Origin: Phallusia mammillata
Lineage: Eukaryota
Direction: 5' to 3'
Length of the DNA stretch: 64,000 bases
NCBI GenBank assembly: GCA_965637545.1
Contig: OZ281499.1
Coordinates: 806,001 to 870,000, forward strand
Positions 24,001 through 39,000 of the stretch are shown here, one piece after another. The position numbers were made by a program. Positions within the stretch are counted from its first letter, which is position 1, and every line of letters begins with the position of its first letter.

Positions 24001-27000
24001 TCGTCTTCATCAGGGTAAATAACACAGTGTTATTTACCCTGATGGGGACGACCTGTATAGGACGTCGAAACGTTGGAATAAAATCACATTTGCCAGAAGA
24101 GCTCTTTAAACTTGATACTATGCCTGGCAGCAATAGCTTATATATGGCTTCCGTTTGTTGATTGGAAAGGATTAAGTTGGCTACAGATGACCTGACTGCG
24201 TAAACGTCATCAGAGAATGCCTACATTTGATCCTTTCCAACCGACATTTACGAAAGTCATGTTTTTTTATTCACAGTTAACACAGCTGGCAGTCATTCCG
24301 CAAACAACCATGACTATAGTAGTTTTCTTAACACACTACTCAGCTCACAAGGTTTGTTGTTTGTTACTATTACCTGGCTGTGATAAATTATAACAAATTA
24401 AAGTATGTATAAAACCATAACTTTTGCGGCATGATAAATTTTATTTTGCAATAAAGCCGGAGTATTTTGACAACCCTGCAACTTTCTCGTTGCTTTTTTA
24501 CTTCCACAGATTCTTTTTTCACATTGTAACAAAATCTTCTAATAATTTGGTAAAAAATGAACTAAAAAAAATGAATTTTCAACATTTAAATTGAATTTTT
24601 TTTACATTTGCACAAATAGTCATCAACATATTCAGCAATTGTGTACAAAGTCAAAATCTAAATTTACCAAAAATCTGGGTTTTCCAATCTCCGCTCAGTT
24701 TCTTCAAACCATTTGCTTTGTCGTGCATCAACGTATTCAAGTACATCCTCCTTTTCCAATGTTTTGAAAACTTTGGTTGCTTTATTGTAATACCTCATTG
24801 CTTCATTGAGTCGTAAAGTTTCCTCACAAACAATACCAAGATTGTTCAACAAGCGACTGTAAATTGGATGCGTTGAACATGTATTTTCAAACTTTGATTC
24901 CAAAAGTTCAAGTCCAAGTTTTAATGTTGTTTCGCTCGCTTCGAAATCCCCAATGTAACGTTGACTCAATTCAATGTCAAGCAAACACTCAACCTCCATT
25001 TCACATCCAATTTTTTCGTCCATTTGAAGGGCGCGGATTTGCTGAATCAAATCACGCATCAGTGGGATCACGTGATTGCGCACGATTTCTCTGTTTCTCG
25101 GCTTCGATAATAAATCAGATTTTTCCATCAAAAGACCGATTGTGTTGGGAATTTTTTCTGCACACTCCACCACACTTTTTACTACAGCGTAGCCATGTTT
25201 TTTTTTCACATATAAATCTGCGGCAATACTAAACATCAAAATGGCTTCTAAATAATTGCCTTCATTTTGACGTTTTGTGGCTTCGACTTCAAAGTCTTTC
25301 GCAGTGAACGCTTGCCTTTGGCATATCCTTAGAAGTTGTTGTTTAGTCGTTTTAGCTTCGTCATACTCTTTTGTTTTCAATAAATCAACATAATATCGGA
25401 CCAATTGATTGAAGTCGTCAATTTCATCTATGAACACAAATCGAAGCGTTTAAATTAGCGTTTAAAATTGTTTAAATTAAATAGTAAAAATATTAAAAAA
25501 ACATCAGAACAAAACTTGGTAAATGCCGATAAGTGGCGTAGTTTCAAAAGGATCCCTAATTTATAAAGTTTATACCAACGAGTCAAACCGCTTGTCATGC
25601 AGGTTTAGGTGCGATTCGGGTTTACCATTTATTGTTTTAAGGGGTTCGGGTCGTGTTGTGTTCCGATTCAGACAAATTACCCGGTCAGAACCGGTTCTCG
25701 GGTTTTATACAGGTTTAAATCTACTTTTTAACAGATCTTGTTTTACAATTTCTTAAAGTTAGCTCAAGTATTTTAGAATCGATAATTTGTGTGGTTTCGA
25801 TTACAAAATATTGCAGACTGCCTTGTAGTTCAGTTCTGGATCCGGCTCAACTTATATAAAATATAGGGTTCAATTCCGGTTCAGATTAAAAAAAAGTGTT
25901 ATTTACAGTTCAGGTTAGGTTCGGTTTTAAATTTTTTTTCCTAACGACTGAAGTATGTTGCACCGTTTGCAACAGTAAAAAACATTGCATCAGCAAATGC
26001 AATTGTTCATTATTGAATTTCTTTGTTCAATTTATTCAAAAATGTGAATAATTGATTTACCTGTAGTTTGCTGTGGTGATTTGCTGGAATGGGAACTTTC
26101 CTCTGTAGATTCGGTGGAGCGTTGGACTCCGGTATTTGCAGGATTGCTGGAATCTAAACACAAAGGTGACCTTAGAATGCGCTTAGCACTTTTTTACAAC
26201 ATTAGATTCTTATTCCATCTACAATCTTTCTTTGCTTTTATTTTTACCAAGGTTAGCACGTAAGAGATATTTCTGGTTAAACGGAGTAAAATTGTTTAAA
26301 CAGGGTTCGGCAACCTTTTTTGCACAGCAGACCGGTTTGAAAATGAAATTTATTATGGACCGCTCTTTAAAAACCACAAATGTTCAGCACTGAAAACTGA
26401 TTACAGTTATTTCAACTTTGAATCAATGTGAACCTTGAGTAAGTTTATTACGACCCTGTAACAATCTCCTCACGGACCGGCACCGTGCATTGGTTTAAGG
26501 TTTCTCGACAAATATTGACTTTACGACAAAGTGCCAGTCGTTTGTCTTGTACCCATTGTAGCTCGCCATGCGTGTAGATGGGACTTTTTAATTTTGCAAT
26601 GTGAATGAATAAACTTAAAACGTAAGATTTCCAAAAATACCGCACATCTGCACATCCCAAATTAATTAGTGAATTGATTGACAGTTGAAGGGCATTGCTA
26701 AGCGTGCATGACAACAAAAAAATTCTTTAGCAAACACCAAATTCGGGTGTCGTTAGGGAGTGAAAAAGTAAAATATGCGTTTGCAAAGCCAGGGTCTGGA
26801 ATACCACAGCACACTATATACTTAAATAATCCTGTGCAACGTGTAACTTGGTGATTGGTTTACCTGCAGGTTGCTGTCGTGATGTGCTGCTGGAATGAGC
26901 GATTTCCTCTCGTTGGGAAGAGGTGTCATCACCGTGTCTGATGGGAGCTAACCAAAAAAGAAACGAAACGTTTTTGTAAAAACGGAAACTAAAAAAGTGT

Positions 27001-36000: not shown

Positions 36001-39000
36001 GTCTTCGCCGACCAAAGTTTGTATCCAATCCTGTATTTCCTGACAGTCCGGTCTTTTTCCTTTCTTGATTAGTTTTAACAGCGTTCTTCGTTGTTCGCCT
36101 TCTAGATACGGATAAGGAGCTTTACGAGCAAGAGCCGAGAAAGTTATCATTCCGAAAGAATATACGTCATGTTTCGTCTTAGGTTTGGTGGTGGGGTCCT
36201 TCAGTTTTTCAGGAGCGGTGTAATAGGGAGTGTATTGAAGCCTTTCTTTCTTGGTTCGTGCCAAAGCATTCACAGTTACCGAAGTACTGTAAGTTGCCAG
36301 TTCGGCGGAACCAAAGTCGCCAACCTTGCATTGAAGCTCTTCAGTAAGCATAATATTCCCAGGTTTTAGGTCCTGATGTATTAAACGTTTGTCGGGCAAA
36401 TTGTGACAGAAAGCCATTGCTGTTGCTATTTCGTGTAAAATGCGAACGCGCACAGCAAGGCCCAGTTCTTTGGATGTATCTATTAGTAAAGTTTCTAAAT
36501 CTCCACCTTTGCAGTATTCCATCACAATTCCCATTGCCAAAGACCATTTGACGTAGCCGAAAATTCGAACGACATTTTTATGATCTGCTTTCAGCAAATG
36601 TTCCATTTCTTCTTGAAACCTTAAGAATATTTTAATAAATATTCTATAGCTATTGTAGTTTTTGTGGGTGAAAAATCCTACATTTTTAAAACCATCTTTT
36701 TCTGCGTTGCACCAGCGACTTTGAATACTTTGATGGCAACTTCTTTCTTTAACCCATTGTGGTATCCAAATAAAACATCCCCGAAACCTCCTGAACCGGC
36801 CTCAAACTTCTCAAGATCACACGTGATGTCGCCACAGTCCAATTCTGGTAACTTTACAAAAAACAAAACAAATTATAAATTCCCTGTTTTGGCCCGTTTG
36901 CGATTTTTCATGCGTACTTATAATATAGATTGAATAATATTTTGTTAGTAAACATGATTTTGCACTATACACGAACTTGAAAAGTAATTTAATCATAAAT
37001 AATACTGCCAAGGTACTGGTGTATATAGAATATATAGTTCAGACGTTTCGACAATCTCTGTACCTACACTGATGATGACAACAGAGATTGTTGAAACGTC
37101 TGTATGATGTATTCTATATACTCTAGTACAGGGGTGCAAAAATGCGGTCGCACGGTCGCGCCGCGCGACCAATAAACTTGCGTGCGCGACCGCAGTTTGT
37201 AGTCACAATTAAATGTGGTCTATATTTTTGTAATTTAATTTATTCTCAGAATAAAAATAGAGCAATGATGAAGTGGCACAATTAGCGGAAAAATAGAGAG
37301 TAGGCAACGATCTAACAATATTCTTTTCGCGAAAAACACGCTTGAGTCAAGCCGCGACCGAATTACGTTAGTCGCATATTTTATGAGGCACTATCGCGAT
37401 GCTACGGTAACTGTGTAAAATGGGCAATCATCAACTGACATGACATGACTGTGACTGTCATAAGTTGAAGTAGTGATTTCCGCACACGCTTTTACAACCA
37501 AAAAAGAACATTTACTTTTCACTATCATCTCAAGCATTCTTGCTCGTCGCGCGCGAATATGATGCTAATCGTCGTGGGTATGGTGCAATCGCACACGTGT
37601 CTCAAAAAGAATTTGCAACGCATATGCACTCAACAACACGTCACTCACGCCGCACAAACATTTTCAACGGATTGTAGCTATTAGATTTGAAAAGACGCAA
37701 TATTTTGGCAAAAAACGTTTGCCACAAAAATATGCTGAGGTCATAATTTCAAATCTTCGTATAATGCGTCGTATAACATAAATCAATACATGTTGTTGTA
37801 TTTAGGGTTAGCCCGATAATACAGTATTACCTGATGCTATTTGTGGCATCGCTACTCATACGATACTTAGGTGGCATCAGAACAGATACCGATACTTTTA
37901 TAAACGAGTAAAACGTGCTTTAGTCTGTCATTTCTGCAACTAATTTTGCGAACGGTCACTTAAACTGTTTTTTTCATGTTTTTTTCAACAATGTGTCCTC
38001 CTTTTTGGGAATGGAAATATGGTAGGCCTAGTTGCAACACAATCTCTGCGTCCGGTTTGGACGTTTGCTGTTCGTATCTGAGAACATGCGAGACGAGCCG
38101 AAAGACCGATTTGCCGAATCAGCAATTTTAGCGACGATTTGTCAGGCTTCGGGGTAAAAACTGGATACCGGGCAAACCCCAATTCCAAAACCTATGCCAA
38201 TAGACTATGCCGTGATGTTACCGAAGCACAGTGCTCCACAACCTGCCGCCGTATGCGTACTCGGAGATGAATTAGTGCGGCCGCGAAACTGTATAGGGAA
38301 ATATATGTGTTGGCGGTAATGCGTTGATTTAAACTTAATTTTAGGCTATAAAACTGGTATAAATAGATTTTTCGTGGCTACTCCGGTTGCAATACGTGAC
38401 AGACTTTTTGTACGCTATTGTGTGCAAACAATGCCAAATGTCAGGCGACAAACAACAATTTAGAATCTAAATTTTAGATAGTGTCGTCATTAACAATTGA
38501 AACAAATCATTAATGCTGTTCCGTTCAATCTATGGATTAGACAAAAAATTCTTGAAATCACTAGATTATAAACAATTTAAGACATTTGGTGGCCGTTTGT
38601 AAAATAGGAACCTGCGATACGGCTATTAGTAGCGAAATGGTTGTGCATTAGGTGGAAAAAGACACATACACAAAAACGTATGTGCTACTAAAATTATTTG
38701 CGCGCTACCAGATTCCGAAAAAAATTTTGCACCCCTGCTCTAGTACTATGGCAGTAATATTTATGATTAAATGATTTTGCATCTTGGTAGACACGACTGT
38801 AGCATGTTGTTGTTTGTTGGCATGTTTATCTTACTTTCATGTTTTATAACATGTAGTCCCCTGTGCTGGGTAGTTTGTACCAACCCAGGTTATTTTAAAT
38901 GCACTTTTTACAATTCAAACTAGGGTTGGCAAGCCGGTCAATTGACCGGTCAAATACGGTCAATTGACCGGTCAATTGACAGCACTTTATTTAACCGGTC

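What the first reader, a model, noticed from the sequence alone, without database searches (positions are those of the whole stretch)
24664..36851. Paralogous kinases appear to have swapped C-terminal effector domains through phase-1 exon shuffling
Seen: both kinases share exon sizes through the second linker exon; homology breaks mid-exon at about 35281. Copy 1 continues through three more phase 1-1 linker exons to a 254-aa TPR-like exon entered in phase 1; copy 2 meets a PARP domain also entered in phase 1. Inference: a modular platform in which symmetric phase-1 exons let different C-terminal domains dock onto the same kinase.
Basis: partly seen in the sequence, partly recalled or inferred. 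Interest (0 to 1): 0.68.

Follow-up and report, generated by a model that had tools for sequence, protein, structure and literature searches.

The report
Duplicated ascidian kinase beside PARP cassette
Two neighbouring copies of a sea-squirt signalling kinase gene differ at their tails: one keeps the old TPR tail, while the other is a cut-short duplicate lying just upstream of an intact PARP enzyme module that it could splice to in frame, a plausible but unproven case of a new gene being assembled by exon shuffling.

Summary
On the minus strand lie two RIPK-like kinase genes, 86% identical in DNA, in an ascidian-type genome (not human). Exons E3, L1 and L2 have equal sizes; E2 differs by 3 nt. 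Homology ends at 35280, 31 nt into linker exon 3. Copy 1 runs on through L3-L6, all phase 1-1, to a 254-aa single-exon TPR tail. Copy 2 is followed 0.6 kb downstream by an intact three-exon PARP14/15-like cassette with a phase-1 acceptor.

Copy 1 has the ancestral architecture, and a Phallusia mammillata protein shows kinase-linkers-tail. Copy 2 is a partial duplicate whose breakpoint lies inside an exon, not an intron. This is tail loss plus possible capture, not a swap. Copy 2 is under selection: dN/dS is 0.29, there are no indels in 1,076 coding nt, and both copies changed at equal rates. By default splicing it stops 24 codons into the broken exon. A kinase-PARP protein needs that exon skipped and the weaker of two acceptors used. 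The stronger, phase-0 acceptor plus an upstream ATG exon gives a standalone PARP.

Family-level modularity is real: close relatives carry SH3 or Kelch, and the same tail sits on a membrane protein. No kinase-PARP protein or transcript was found. RNA evidence is decisive.

The parts
30626..30643 (-). Copy 1, coding part of exon 1 (ATG plus 5 codons; phase-0 donor GTAAGT)
   Evidence: A homologous start occurs in the P. mammillata protein P0001.
29369..29535 (-). Copy 1 exon E2, 167 nt, phase 0 to 2: start of the kinase domain (glycine loop, beta-3 lysine)
28449..29311 (-). Copy 1 exon E3, 863 nt, phase 2 to 1: rest of the kinase domain (HQD catalytic loop, DFG, APE) plus a C-terminal extension
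   Evidence: Pfam Pkinase 135 bits. Closest solved structure is RIPK1, E 2.5e-29. Exon limits.
28263..28382 (-). Copy 1 linker exon L1, 120 nt, phase 1-1
   Evidence: 25 of 38 aligned residues identical to P0278.
28066..28158 (-). Copy 1 linker exon L2, 93 nt, phase 1-1
   Evidence: 26 of 29 aligned residues identical to P0278.
27784..27963 (-). Copy 1 linker exon L3, 180 nt, phase 1-1. The duplication boundary at 27933 falls 31 nt into it.
   Evidence: 33 of 51 aligned residues identical to P0278.
27288..27386 (-). Copy 1 linker exon L4, 99 nt, phase 1-1, with a basic patch that looks like a nuclear-localisation signal. Its use is not supported by a relative.
   Evidence: Only a weak match to P0278.
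26864..26947 (-). Copy 1 linker exon L5, 84 nt, phase 1-1
   Evidence: 11 of 15 aligned residues identical to P0278.
26061..26153 (-). Copy 1 linker exon L6, 93 nt, phase 1-1: an internal duplicate of the head of L3
   Evidence: 26069-26189 aligns with 27879-28000 at 84%..
24664..25427 (-). Copy 1 terminal exon: 254-aa TPR-like tail entered in phase 1, stop TAA at 24666-24664
   Evidence: TPR_12 36.6 bits. AlphaFold model pLDDT 87.8 with 11 helices. Best fold matches are the TPR domains of Pins/LGN, kinesin light chain and NASP. Atlas hits are TPR clusters.
40686..40700 (-). Copy 2, coding part of exon 1 (ATG plus 4 codons, same GTAAGT donor; one codon shorter than copy 1)
36682..36851 (-). 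Copy 2 exon E2, 170 nt, phase 0 to 2
35757..36619 (-). Copy 2 exon E3, 863 nt, phase 2 to 1; open reading frame intact
   Evidence: Pfam Pkinase 135.6 bits. 245 of 287 residues identical to copy 1; dN/dS 0.29.
35572..35691 (-). Copy 2 linker exon L1, 120 nt, phase 1-1
35383..35475 (-). Copy 2 linker exon L2, 93 nt, phase 1-1; the last intact exon shared with copy 1
35237..35310 (-). Copy 2 broken linker exon L3'. It keeps a strong acceptor, is homologous to copy 1 only down to 35280, then runs through unrelated sequence to an in-frame stop at 35239-35237 (24 codons in all). It has no good donor.
34499..34632 (-). PARP exon P1, phase 1 to 0: start of the catalytic domain. An alternative, stronger, phase-0 acceptor would start the exon at 34705.
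34262..34436 (-). PARP exon P2, phase 0 to 1; holds the catalytic histidine
   Evidence: Pfam PARP 29.0 bits, cut-off 26.7. PARP14 chain E 7.6e-13.
33909..34180 (-). PARP exon P3, phase 1 to stop (TAG at 33911-33909); holds the tyrosine, and a leucine where poly-ADP-ribosylating PARPs have glutamate
   Evidence: Pfam PARP 30.5 bits. PARP14 chain E 9.8e-15, with alignment shown.
34819..34896 (-). Candidate start exon for the PARP cassette (ATG plus 25 codons, phase-0 donor). It fits the phase-0 acceptor at 34706 and is the basis of the standalone-PARP rival.
   Evidence: No Pfam family.
27933..33366 (.). Duplicated unit A: copy 1 from mid-L3 through about 2.7 kb upstream of its start codon
   Evidence: blastn.
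35280..42735 (.). Duplicated unit B (copy 2). It is longer than A because of two segments in intron 1 flanked by inverted repeats, 36971-38788 and 38931-40023.
   Evidence: blastn. Inverted repeats.
33367..35279 (.). Unique spacer J between the two units. It holds the PARP cassette and has no copy elsewhere in the window.
   Evidence: no other match. (no terminal repeats).

Best explanation
Copy 1 is a RIPK-like, non-RD protein kinase gene. It has six low-complexity linker exons, all phase 1-1, and a single-exon TPR tail, and this is the older architecture. A segment of at least 5.4 kb was duplicated about 7.3 kb upstream in the same orientation. The segment carries the upstream region, the start exon, both kinase exons, linkers 1-2 and the first 31 nt of linker 3.

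The breakpoint lies inside linker exon 3, so the duplicate (copy 2) lost linkers 3-6 and the TPR tail. Copy 2 has since been kept by selection as a kinase. It now lies 0.6 kb upstream of an intact three-exon cassette for a PARP14/15-type mono-ADP-ribosyltransferase domain.

With default splicing into the retained strong acceptor of the broken exon, copy 2 makes a tail-less kinase that stops after 24 codons. All junctions are phase 1, so skipping that exon and using the acceptor at 34634-34633 would make an in-frame kinase-PARP protein. That is possible but unproven.

The locus is therefore tail loss by partial duplication plus a candidate domain capture, inside a kinase family that has demonstrably exchanged tails. 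It is not a reciprocal swap.

Functional reading (inferred): the kinase is the signalling core, the TPR solenoid is a peptide-binding recruitment tail, and a PARP tail would add a second catalytic output.

Shown: the anatomy, the duplication, the selection signals, the domain identities, and the relatives' architectures.
Inferred: the direction of the event, the default splicing, and the function.
For: Duplication and break:
- define the two units and the break.
- Exon table with canonical splice sites.

Copy 1 architecture is older:
- P. mammillata P0278 has the kinase end, L1, L2, a full L3, further linkers and the tail. Identities to the window: 65 of 71 (kinase end, copy 1), 61 of 71 (kinase end, copy 2), 147 of 253 (tail).
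- The intact L3 of copy 1 stays homologous to L6 across the breakpoint position, whereas copy 2 diverges there.

Copy 2 is under selection:
- E3 dN/dS is 0.29, with dS 0.24.
- Measured against P0001, copy 1 has 17 private changes and copy 2 has 15. Tree end branches are 0.067 and 0.087.
- There are no indels in E3+L1+L2 (1,076 nt), against 14 indel events in 287 aligned nt of the four small introns and 16 in about 520 nt of intron 1.
- Start codon, donor and about 1.5 kb of upstream sequence are retained at 81-90% identity.

The PARP cassette is intact:
- Three exons with an open frame; His and Tyr are present; best matches are PARP14, PARP15 and PARP10.

Family modularity.

The tail is a TPR solenoid.
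Against: - No transcript evidence of any kind was available, so default splicing is inferred from splice-site appearance only.
- The retained reading frame of L1 and L2 in copy 2 shows that something downstream of E3 is translated, but not what follows L2.
- Linker substitutions are near neutral (pN/pS 0.85), so selection on them is seen only as frame conservation.
- dN/dS was measured between the two copies, not per lineage.
- A spacer J between the units is not what a simple tandem duplication leaves, so the order of events stays open. J may have been inserted at the junction, or the unit may have been inserted upstream of a pre-existing PARP gene.
- The intact PARP cassette with a phase-1 acceptor exactly at its domain boundary is what a real fusion would look like.
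Confidence: 0.5

Rival explanations
1. One reading: copy 2 and the PARP cassette are one gene. The broken exon is skipped, or spliced from a weak phase-1 donor at 35292, and L2 joins P1 in frame. The product is a RIPK-like kinase with a C-terminal mono-ADP-ribosyltransferase domain.
For: - Same strand, 0.6 kb apart, with no other coding exon found between them.
- The L2 donor and the P1 acceptor are both phase 1, and the P1 acceptor sits two residues before the start of the catalytic fold.
- The PARP cassette is intact, and no upstream PARP-type exons were found in the window: only the catalytic exons match PARP relatives, and the next gene upstream is IAP-like.
- The P1 acceptor is no weaker than the acceptors of E3 or L2 in the same gene.
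- At the non-coding indel rate, a 570-nt frame that had been unused since the duplication should have been broken.
Against: - The broken exon keeps a strong acceptor 72 nt after L2 and carries an in-frame stop.
- A stronger acceptor at 34706 is phase 0. Joined to L2, it would give a stop after three codons.
- 0 of 268 kinase-search proteins carry a PARP domain, and none of the 3 PARP-search hits carries a kinase.
- Two literature searches found no kinase-PARP protein.
- Phase and orientation agreement is about a 1-in-6 coincidence.
Confidence: 0.3
2. The PARP cassette is a small gene of its own. It would use the start exon 34896-34819 (phase-0 donor) spliced to the phase-0 acceptor at 34706, or be trans-spliced there, giving a protein of about 243 aa that is only a PARP domain. 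Copy 2 would be a separate tail-less kinase. This overlaps the best explanation and differs only in what the cassette does.
For: - There is a coherent open frame from an ATG in a good context, through canonical GT and AG sites, into the catalytic domain.
- The acceptor at 34706 has the best pyrimidine tract of all 13 acceptors listed.
- Short proteins with no Pfam domain other than PARP exist among the relatives: Styela clava PARP12-like, 344 aa, and P0121, 422 aa.
- ATTAAA hexamers follow the copy 2 stop at 35032, 34970 and 34924.
Against: - The 26-codon start exon and the 24-codon extension match no family and no relative.
- An open frame of this length upstream of an exon is expected by chance.
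- About 1.2 poly(A) hexamers are expected by chance in that AT-rich stretch (my estimate from base composition).
Confidence: 0.35
3. Copy 2, the PARP cassette, or both are non-functional relics of a rearrangement.
For: - The breakpoint destroys an exon.
- No transcript evidence exists.
- The linkers evolve near neutrally.
Against: - dN/dS 0.29, equal rates in both copies, and no indels in 1,076 coding nt against many in adjacent non-coding DNA.
- All splice sites, the start codon and the catalytic motifs are intact.
- The PARP frame and motifs are intact.
Confidence: 0.1
4. Assembly artefact: the junction at 35280, or the whole second copy, is a mis-join or a collapsed or expanded haplotype.
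For: - Tandem duplicates and repeat-rich surroundings are where assemblies fail.
- Nothing here could check reads.
Against: - The copies differ by 10-14% and by many indels, far more than haplotypes usually do.
- Copy 2 carries private insertions flanked by inverted repeats.
- There are no N runs.
Confidence: 0.05

Closest known systems
Phallusia mammillata protein P0278 (UniRef A0A6F9DJG..., 'uncharacterized protein LOC108950821'; N-terminally incomplete, 515 aa)
   Same: Kinase C-terminal end, L1, L2, L3, further linkers and the TPR tail, in the same order as copy 1. Identities: 65 of 71 in the kinase end, 26 of 29 in L2, 147 of 253 in the tail.
   Different: The tail is only 58% identical while the kinase end is 92% identical. 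Linker number and order after L3 differ. Whether it is an orthologue or a third paralogue is unresolved.
Phallusia mammillata P0001 (kinase with SH3 tail, 768 aa) and P0279 (weak Sushi-like match plus hydrophobic stretch plus the same TPR tail, 506 aa)
   Same: P0001 is the nearest full-length kinase relative (71% identity; sister to the window pair with 100/99 support) and shares the S/T/Q-rich linker region. P0279 carries the same tail (136 of 225 identical), starting at the same residue.
   Different: P0001 ends in SH3, not TPR or PARP. P0279 has no kinase at all. Their gene structures could not be seen.
Vertebrate RIPK1, RIPK2 and RIPK4 kinase domains
   Same: Best solved-structure matches: RIPK1 E 2.5e-29, then RIPK4, RIPK2 and TAK1. 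The catalytic loop lacks the arginine of HRD, as in RIPK1 (aligned).
   Different: No death domain, RHIM, CARD or ankyrin repeats were found. The tail is TPR.
PARP14, PARP15 and PARP10 catalytic domains (mono-ADP-ribosyltransferases)
   Same: Best solved-structure matches for both exons searched (E 1e-14 and 8e-13). His and Tyr are conserved, and a Leu aligns with the PARP14 Leu.
   Different: No macro, WWE or zinc-finger exons are in the window. Here the domain stands as a bare three-exon cassette.
Exon shuffling through symmetrical phase 1-1 exons, and chimeric genes born from partial duplicates (recalled: Patthy's rule; jingwei-type chimeras)
   Same: Symmetrical 1-1 linker exons, internal exon duplication, and the same modules in different protein contexts.
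   Different: The breakpoint is in an exon rather than an intron, and the joined product is not shown.

Membership tests
Eukaryotic protein kinase (Pfam PF00069) | Profile match above the curated cut-off | tested here: met
   Copy 1 E3 scores 135 bits and copy 2 E3 135.6 bits, against a cut-off of 31.7.
Eukaryotic protein kinase (Pfam PF00069) | Catalytic motifs: glycine loop, beta-3 Lys, alpha-C Glu, catalytic-loop Asp, DFG, APE (motif list recalled) | tested here: met
   All are present in both copies in the exon translations. The catalytic loop reads HQD, not HRD.
RIPK family | Kinase domain closest to RIP kinases | tested here: met
   Of the 60 best PDB sequences shown, the first 26 are RIPK1, RIPK4 or RIPK2.
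RIPK family | Death domain, RHIM, CARD or ankyrin C-terminal module | tested here: not met
   Pfam finds only TPR families, plus a weak MIT hit, on the tail exon. I therefore call it RIPK-like, not a RIPK.
PARP catalytic domain (Pfam PF00644) | Profile match above the curated cut-off | tested here: met
   Searched exon by exon: P2 29.0 bits and P3 30.5 bits, against a cut-off of 26.7. P1 alone gives no hit.
Mono-ADP-ribosylating PARP clade (PARP10/14/15 type) | His-Tyr present, with the third triad position not Glu (triad recalled) | tested here: met
   His is in P2. Tyr and Leu are in P3, and the Leu aligns with the PARP14 Leu.
TPR solenoid | TPR profile match and a helical-hairpin fold | tested here: met
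   TPR_12 36.6 bits against 30.1, covering only one stretch. Model pLDDT 87.8 with 11 helices. 48 PDB matches at E <= 0.001; those listed are nearly all TPR domains, with TM-scores of only 0.2-0.55.
Exon shuffling | Module bounded by introns of the same phase | tested here: met
   L1-L6 are all 1-1. The TPR exon and P1 are entered in phase 1. P1 also has a phase-0 alternative.
Exon shuffling | The same module occurs in otherwise unrelated proteins | tested here: met
   The TPR tail is on a kinase (window, P0278) and on a non-kinase protein (P0279). Tails differ among sister kinases.
Exon shuffling | Recombination breakpoint lies in an intron | tested here: not met
   The break is 31 nt inside exon L3'.
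Exon shuffling | The joined exons are spliced into one mRNA | not testable with these tools
   No transcript or eukaryotic genome collection was at hand.

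The most novel reading that the evidence does not exclude
A newly born chimeric enzyme. A RIPK-like kinase lost its TPR tail through a partial duplication and captured a PARP14-type mono-ADP-ribosyltransferase cassette. The capture was made possible by universal phase-1 linker exons. The gene sits next to an IAP-like gene in an ascidian cluster of cell-death and innate-immunity-type genes. It would be a kinase-PARP architecture that my searches did not find in print or among the proteins searched.
Probability: 0.3. Interest if true: 0.6.

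Novelty: new member of a known kind. Interest (0 to 1): 0.4.

Why it matters
If the L2-to-P1 joint is real, the locus catches domain capture soon after it happened. Parent and daughter genes lie side by side, the breakpoint is readable to the base, and dS is only 0.24. It would also add a kinase-ADP-ribosyltransferase enzyme to a lineage-specific, RIPK-like family.

Even without the fusion, the locus and its relatives show how low-complexity phase 1-1 linker exons accompany tail exchange in an ascidian kinase family (SH3, TPR, Kelch and tail-less forms). The principle itself, symmetrical exons permitting shuffling, is textbook, so the general interest is moderate.

Tried and rejected
- Upstream exons of an older PARP gene. 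tblastn with the three PARP relatives matched only the catalytic exons; all other hits had E > 3. ORFs of 55 aa or more between 42700 and 53000 showed an IAP-like gene instead.
- Transposon ends around the spacer J. No terminal direct or inverted repeats were found at its borders.
- A kinase-PARP protein in databases. None among 304 hits, of which 120 were listed. None among 3 PARP hits. None among 150 representatives. A local phmmer with the three PARP exons matched 0 of 268 kinase-search proteins. PARP is not among the 25 families shown, of 53 found, for 63 relatives. The Atlas gave only PARP-only clusters.
- Literature. Searches found no paper on this family or on a kinase-PARP fusion. In the preprint 10.64898/2026.10.17.759577 (passages only), nothing bore on it.
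- 'Clavelina kinase with the same tail' as proof of great age. The similarity is 27% over 105 residues and the kinase sits on a long branch far from the window pair, so this is weak.
- Poly(A) hexamers as evidence for a tail-less transcript. Four ATTAAA were found where I expect about 1.2 AWTAAA hexamers by chance, which is suggestive only.
- Species assignment. Left at 'ascidian, close to Phallusia'.

Full report
**What the window is.** The 64-kb window has no N and 32-46% G+C. I take it for an ascidian (tunicate) genome, not human. The closest named proteins to its exons are from Phallusia mammillata and Clavelina lepadiformis. Everything discussed lies on the minus strand. Every search, Pfam scan and fold used one exon at a time, so domain scores are per exon.

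**Anatomy.** Reading the two regions and checking every boundary by coordinates gives these models, all with AG and GT sites.

Copy 1:

| Exon | Coordinates | Size | Phase |
|---|---|---|---|
| start exon (coding part) | 30643-30626 | 18 nt | 0 out |
| E2 | 29535-29369 | 167 nt | 0 to 2 |
| E3 | 29311-28449 | 863 nt | 2 to 1 |
| L1 | 28382-28263 | 120 nt | 1-1 |
| L2 | 28158-28066 | 93 nt | 1-1 |
| L3 | 27963-27784 | 180 nt | 1-1 |
| L4 | 27386-27288 | 99 nt | 1-1 |
| L5 | 26947-26864 | 84 nt | 1-1 |
| L6 | 26153-26061 | 93 nt | 1-1 |
| terminal exon | 25427-24664 | 254 aa | 1 in |

Copy 2:

| Exon | Coordinates | Size |
|---|---|---|
| start exon (coding part) | 40700-40686 | 15 nt |
| E2 | 36851-36682 | 170 nt |
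| E3 | 36619-35757 | 863 nt |
| L1 | 35691-35572 | 120 nt |
| L2 | 35475-35383 | 93 nt |
| L3' | starts at 35310 | broken |

Seven of copy 1's nine introns are phase 1.

**The break.** blastn aligns 27933-29586 with 35280-36901 at 86.1%. A three-way alignment of L3, L6 and L3' shows all three sharing the intron end and the first 31 exon bases. After that, L3 and L6 run on together while copy 2 diverges. In frame, L3' reaches a stop at 35239-35237, 24 codons in all. It has no donor of normal appearance. The only phase-1 GT is at 35292 and is a poor match to the consensus.

**Extent of the duplication.** Homology resumes upstream of both genes: 30104-30929 with 40157-40985, 31118-31607 with 41206-41693, and 33248-33366 with 42534-42735. 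The units are therefore 27933-33366 and 35280-42735. The second is longer because of two segments in intron 1 bounded by inverted repeats of 47-50 nt, at 36971-38788 and 38931-40023.

Between the units lies a unique 1.9-kb spacer, 33367-35279, with no copy elsewhere in the window and no terminal repeats. A plain tandem duplication leaves no spacer. Either the spacer came in at the junction, or the unit was copied in upstream of a PARP gene that was already there. I could not tell which.

**The PARP cassette.** Three exons sit in the spacer: 34632-34499 (phase 1 to 0), 34436-34262 (0 to 1) and 34180-33909 (1 to stop). Together they encode one complete catalytic domain.
- Exons 2 and 3 each pass the Pfam PARP cut-off (29.0 and 30.5 bits against 26.7).
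- Both match PARP14 best, then PARP15 and PARP10, with E from 1e-14 to 1e-12 for PARP14 and PARP15.
- The histidine and tyrosine are present, and a leucine aligns with the PARP14 leucine. That this position marks mono-ADP-ribosylating enzymes is recalled, not tested.
- The phase-1 acceptor lies two residues before the start of the fold.
- 72 nt upstream there is a second acceptor with the best pyrimidine tract of the 13 acceptors tabulated. It reads in phase 0.
- Further up, 34896-34819 is an ATG-started 26-codon stretch ending in a phase-0 donor.

Two coherent models therefore exist: kinase L2 joined to P1 in phase 1, or a standalone protein of about 243 aa that is only a PARP domain. L2 joined to the phase-0 acceptor would stop after three codons.

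**Which architecture is older.**
- The tail-exon search found two P. mammillata proteins among 1,443 candidates.
- P0278 begins inside the kinase C-lobe and continues through L1, L2, a full L3, an L5-like exon, another linker and the tail. Identities are 65 of 71 (kinase end, copy 1), 61 of 71 (kinase end, copy 2), 26 of 29 (L2), 33 of 51 (L3) and 147 of 253 (tail). The kinase-linkers-TPR order is thus a real product in a close relative, and copy 1 has it.
- Copy 2's L3' begins like P0278's L3 (9 identical residues of 13 aligned) and is then cut.

Copy 2 is the derived, truncated copy. The event is a loss, not a swap.

**Is copy 2 alive?**
- E3 differs at 84 of 863 bases with no indel. dN/dS is 0.29, with dS 0.24.
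- Against P0001 as outgroup, copy 1 has 17 private amino-acid changes and copy 2 has 15. A further 188 columns are identical in all three and 57 are shared by the copies only. Tree end branches are 0.067 and 0.087.
- Non-coding DNA between the copies is full of indels: 14 events in 287 aligned nt of the four small introns and 16 in about 520 nt of intron 1. E3, L1 and L2 together (1,076 nt) have none.
- The linkers change almost neutrally (pN/pS 0.85) but keep their frame.
- Start codon, first donor and upstream sequence are conserved.

I conclude that copy 2 is a selected kinase gene translated at least through L2. By the same indel rate, a 570-nt PARP frame left unused since the duplication should have been broken. 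This is my estimate, roughly ten indels expected. The cassette is therefore probably expressed in some form.

**What the parts are.**
- The kinase is RIPK-like. The first 26 of the 60 PDB sequences shown are RIPK1, RIPK4 or RIPK2, with RIPK1 at E 2.5e-29. All catalytic motifs are present, with HQD in place of HRD.
- No death domain, RHIM or CARD was found, so I do not file it as a RIPK.
- The tail folds with confidence (pLDDT 87.8, pTM 0.82, alignment of only five rows) into 11 helices. Its best PDB matches are TPR domains of Pins/LGN, kinesin light chain and NASP (48 matches at E <= 0.001; TM-scores 0.2-0.55). Pfam TPR_12 and the Atlas agree.
- A peptide-binding recruitment role for the tail is inferred from that fold class.

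**Family-level modularity.**
- HMMER against 1.84 billion representatives gave 200 proteins at E <= 1e-30. The named ones among the ten I looked up are all ascidian.
- In the tree of 23 kinase domains, chosen by me from the 150 listed and mostly single-kinase hits of 35% identity or more, the window pair (97/97) is sister to P0001, which ends in SH3 (100/99).
- Further out are P. mammillata kinases with Kelch repeats (P0136) or no extra domain (P0128), and Clavelina kinases with SPRY or GBP at the N-terminus.
- Of 63 relatives of 430-1,000 aa, 4 have Kelch, 2 GBP, 2 SPRY, 2 a cyclase domain and 1 LRR. Only 25 of 53 families were displayed.
- The TPR tail also sits on P0279, which has a weak Sushi match (E 0.0027, below the cut-off), a hydrophobic stretch and no kinase. 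It begins at the same residue as in the window and in P0278.
- L6 duplicates the head of L3, and a 36-nt piece of L1's end recurs in L3.

Phase-1 introns as the means is inferred from this one locus only.

**Against the fusion.**
- 0 of 268 kinase-search proteins matched any PARP exon at E <= 0.01, and only 1 of 268 matched the tail.
- None of the 3 PARP-search hits has a kinase.
- No protein of this species appears to be in the databases, since even copy 1 finds nothing above 71% identity. This absence therefore weighs little.
- Literature searches found no account of this family or of a kinase-PARP protein.
- One paper, of which I read passages (PMC11463336), reports lineage-specific caspases with kinase or PARP catalytic pro-domains in lophotrochozoans. 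Such odd combinations in cell-death genes have precedent.
- No supplements were consulted, and none seems to bear on these claims.

**Verdict.** The most likely account is a partial duplication that made a selected, tail-less kinase next to an intact PARP cassette (0.5). A true kinase-PARP chimera is a live alternative (0.3). This is a new example of a known process, and one RT-PCR would settle it.

Noticed in passing
window 45293-45369, minus strand: Full-length match to the Rfam CPEB3 (HDV-like) self-cleaving ribozyme: 55.3 bits against a gathering score of 35, model positions 1-78 of 78, with the first helix changed on both strands. It lies between the IAP-like gene and kinase copy 2. The family is described as mammalian. 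A search listing shows that HDV-like ribozymes are reported at the 5' ends of R2 retrotransposons, in papers that also mention Ciona.
   Followed up: partly
window 46885-55097, minus strand: An IAP-like gene directly upstream of kinase copy 2. BIR exons are at 54807-55097, 51429-51608 and 50896-51105, and a C-terminal RING exon is at 46885-47121. An IAP beside RIPK-like kinases and a PARP14-like domain looks like a cluster of cell-death or innate-immunity genes. The cIAP-RIPK1 link is recalled from mammals.
   Followed up: partly
window 53090-54541, minus strand: A 483-aa open frame with a reverse-transcriptase domain (RVT_1, E 6e-34). It is probably a non-LTR element sitting inside an intron of the IAP-like gene.
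   Followed up: no
window 14690-18855, minus strand: A gypsy-type LTR retrotransposon: a 1,162-aa frame with RT, RNase H and integrase domains, preceded by a 186-aa gag-like frame.
   Followed up: no
window 61267-63246, minus strand: Two long open frames, one with a P-loop motif and a weak AAA_22 match (E 0.004). This may be an NTPase (NLR-like?) gene at the edge of the window.
   Followed up: no
window 32418-33280: A long array of 11-nt and 22-nt tandem repeats in the upstream region of copy 1.
   Followed up: no
window 23934-24118 and 46060-46179: A palindromic repeat of about 185 nt with a second copy 22 kb away. Its translation resembles the first residues of the P. mammillata protein P0001, which look like translated 5' UTR. 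The same repeat family may therefore occur in that species.
   Followed up: no
window 28158-28180 and 35475-35497, minus strand: P0278 has six more residues at the start of L2 than my model. In both window copies the matching upstream position has GG where an AG acceptor would be needed, so the acceptor seems to have moved 18 nt downstream.
   Followed up: partly
window 27288-27386, minus strand: Candidate linker exon L4 carries a basic patch that looks like a nuclear-localisation signal. It has no clear counterpart in P0278, so its use is uncertain.
   Followed up: no
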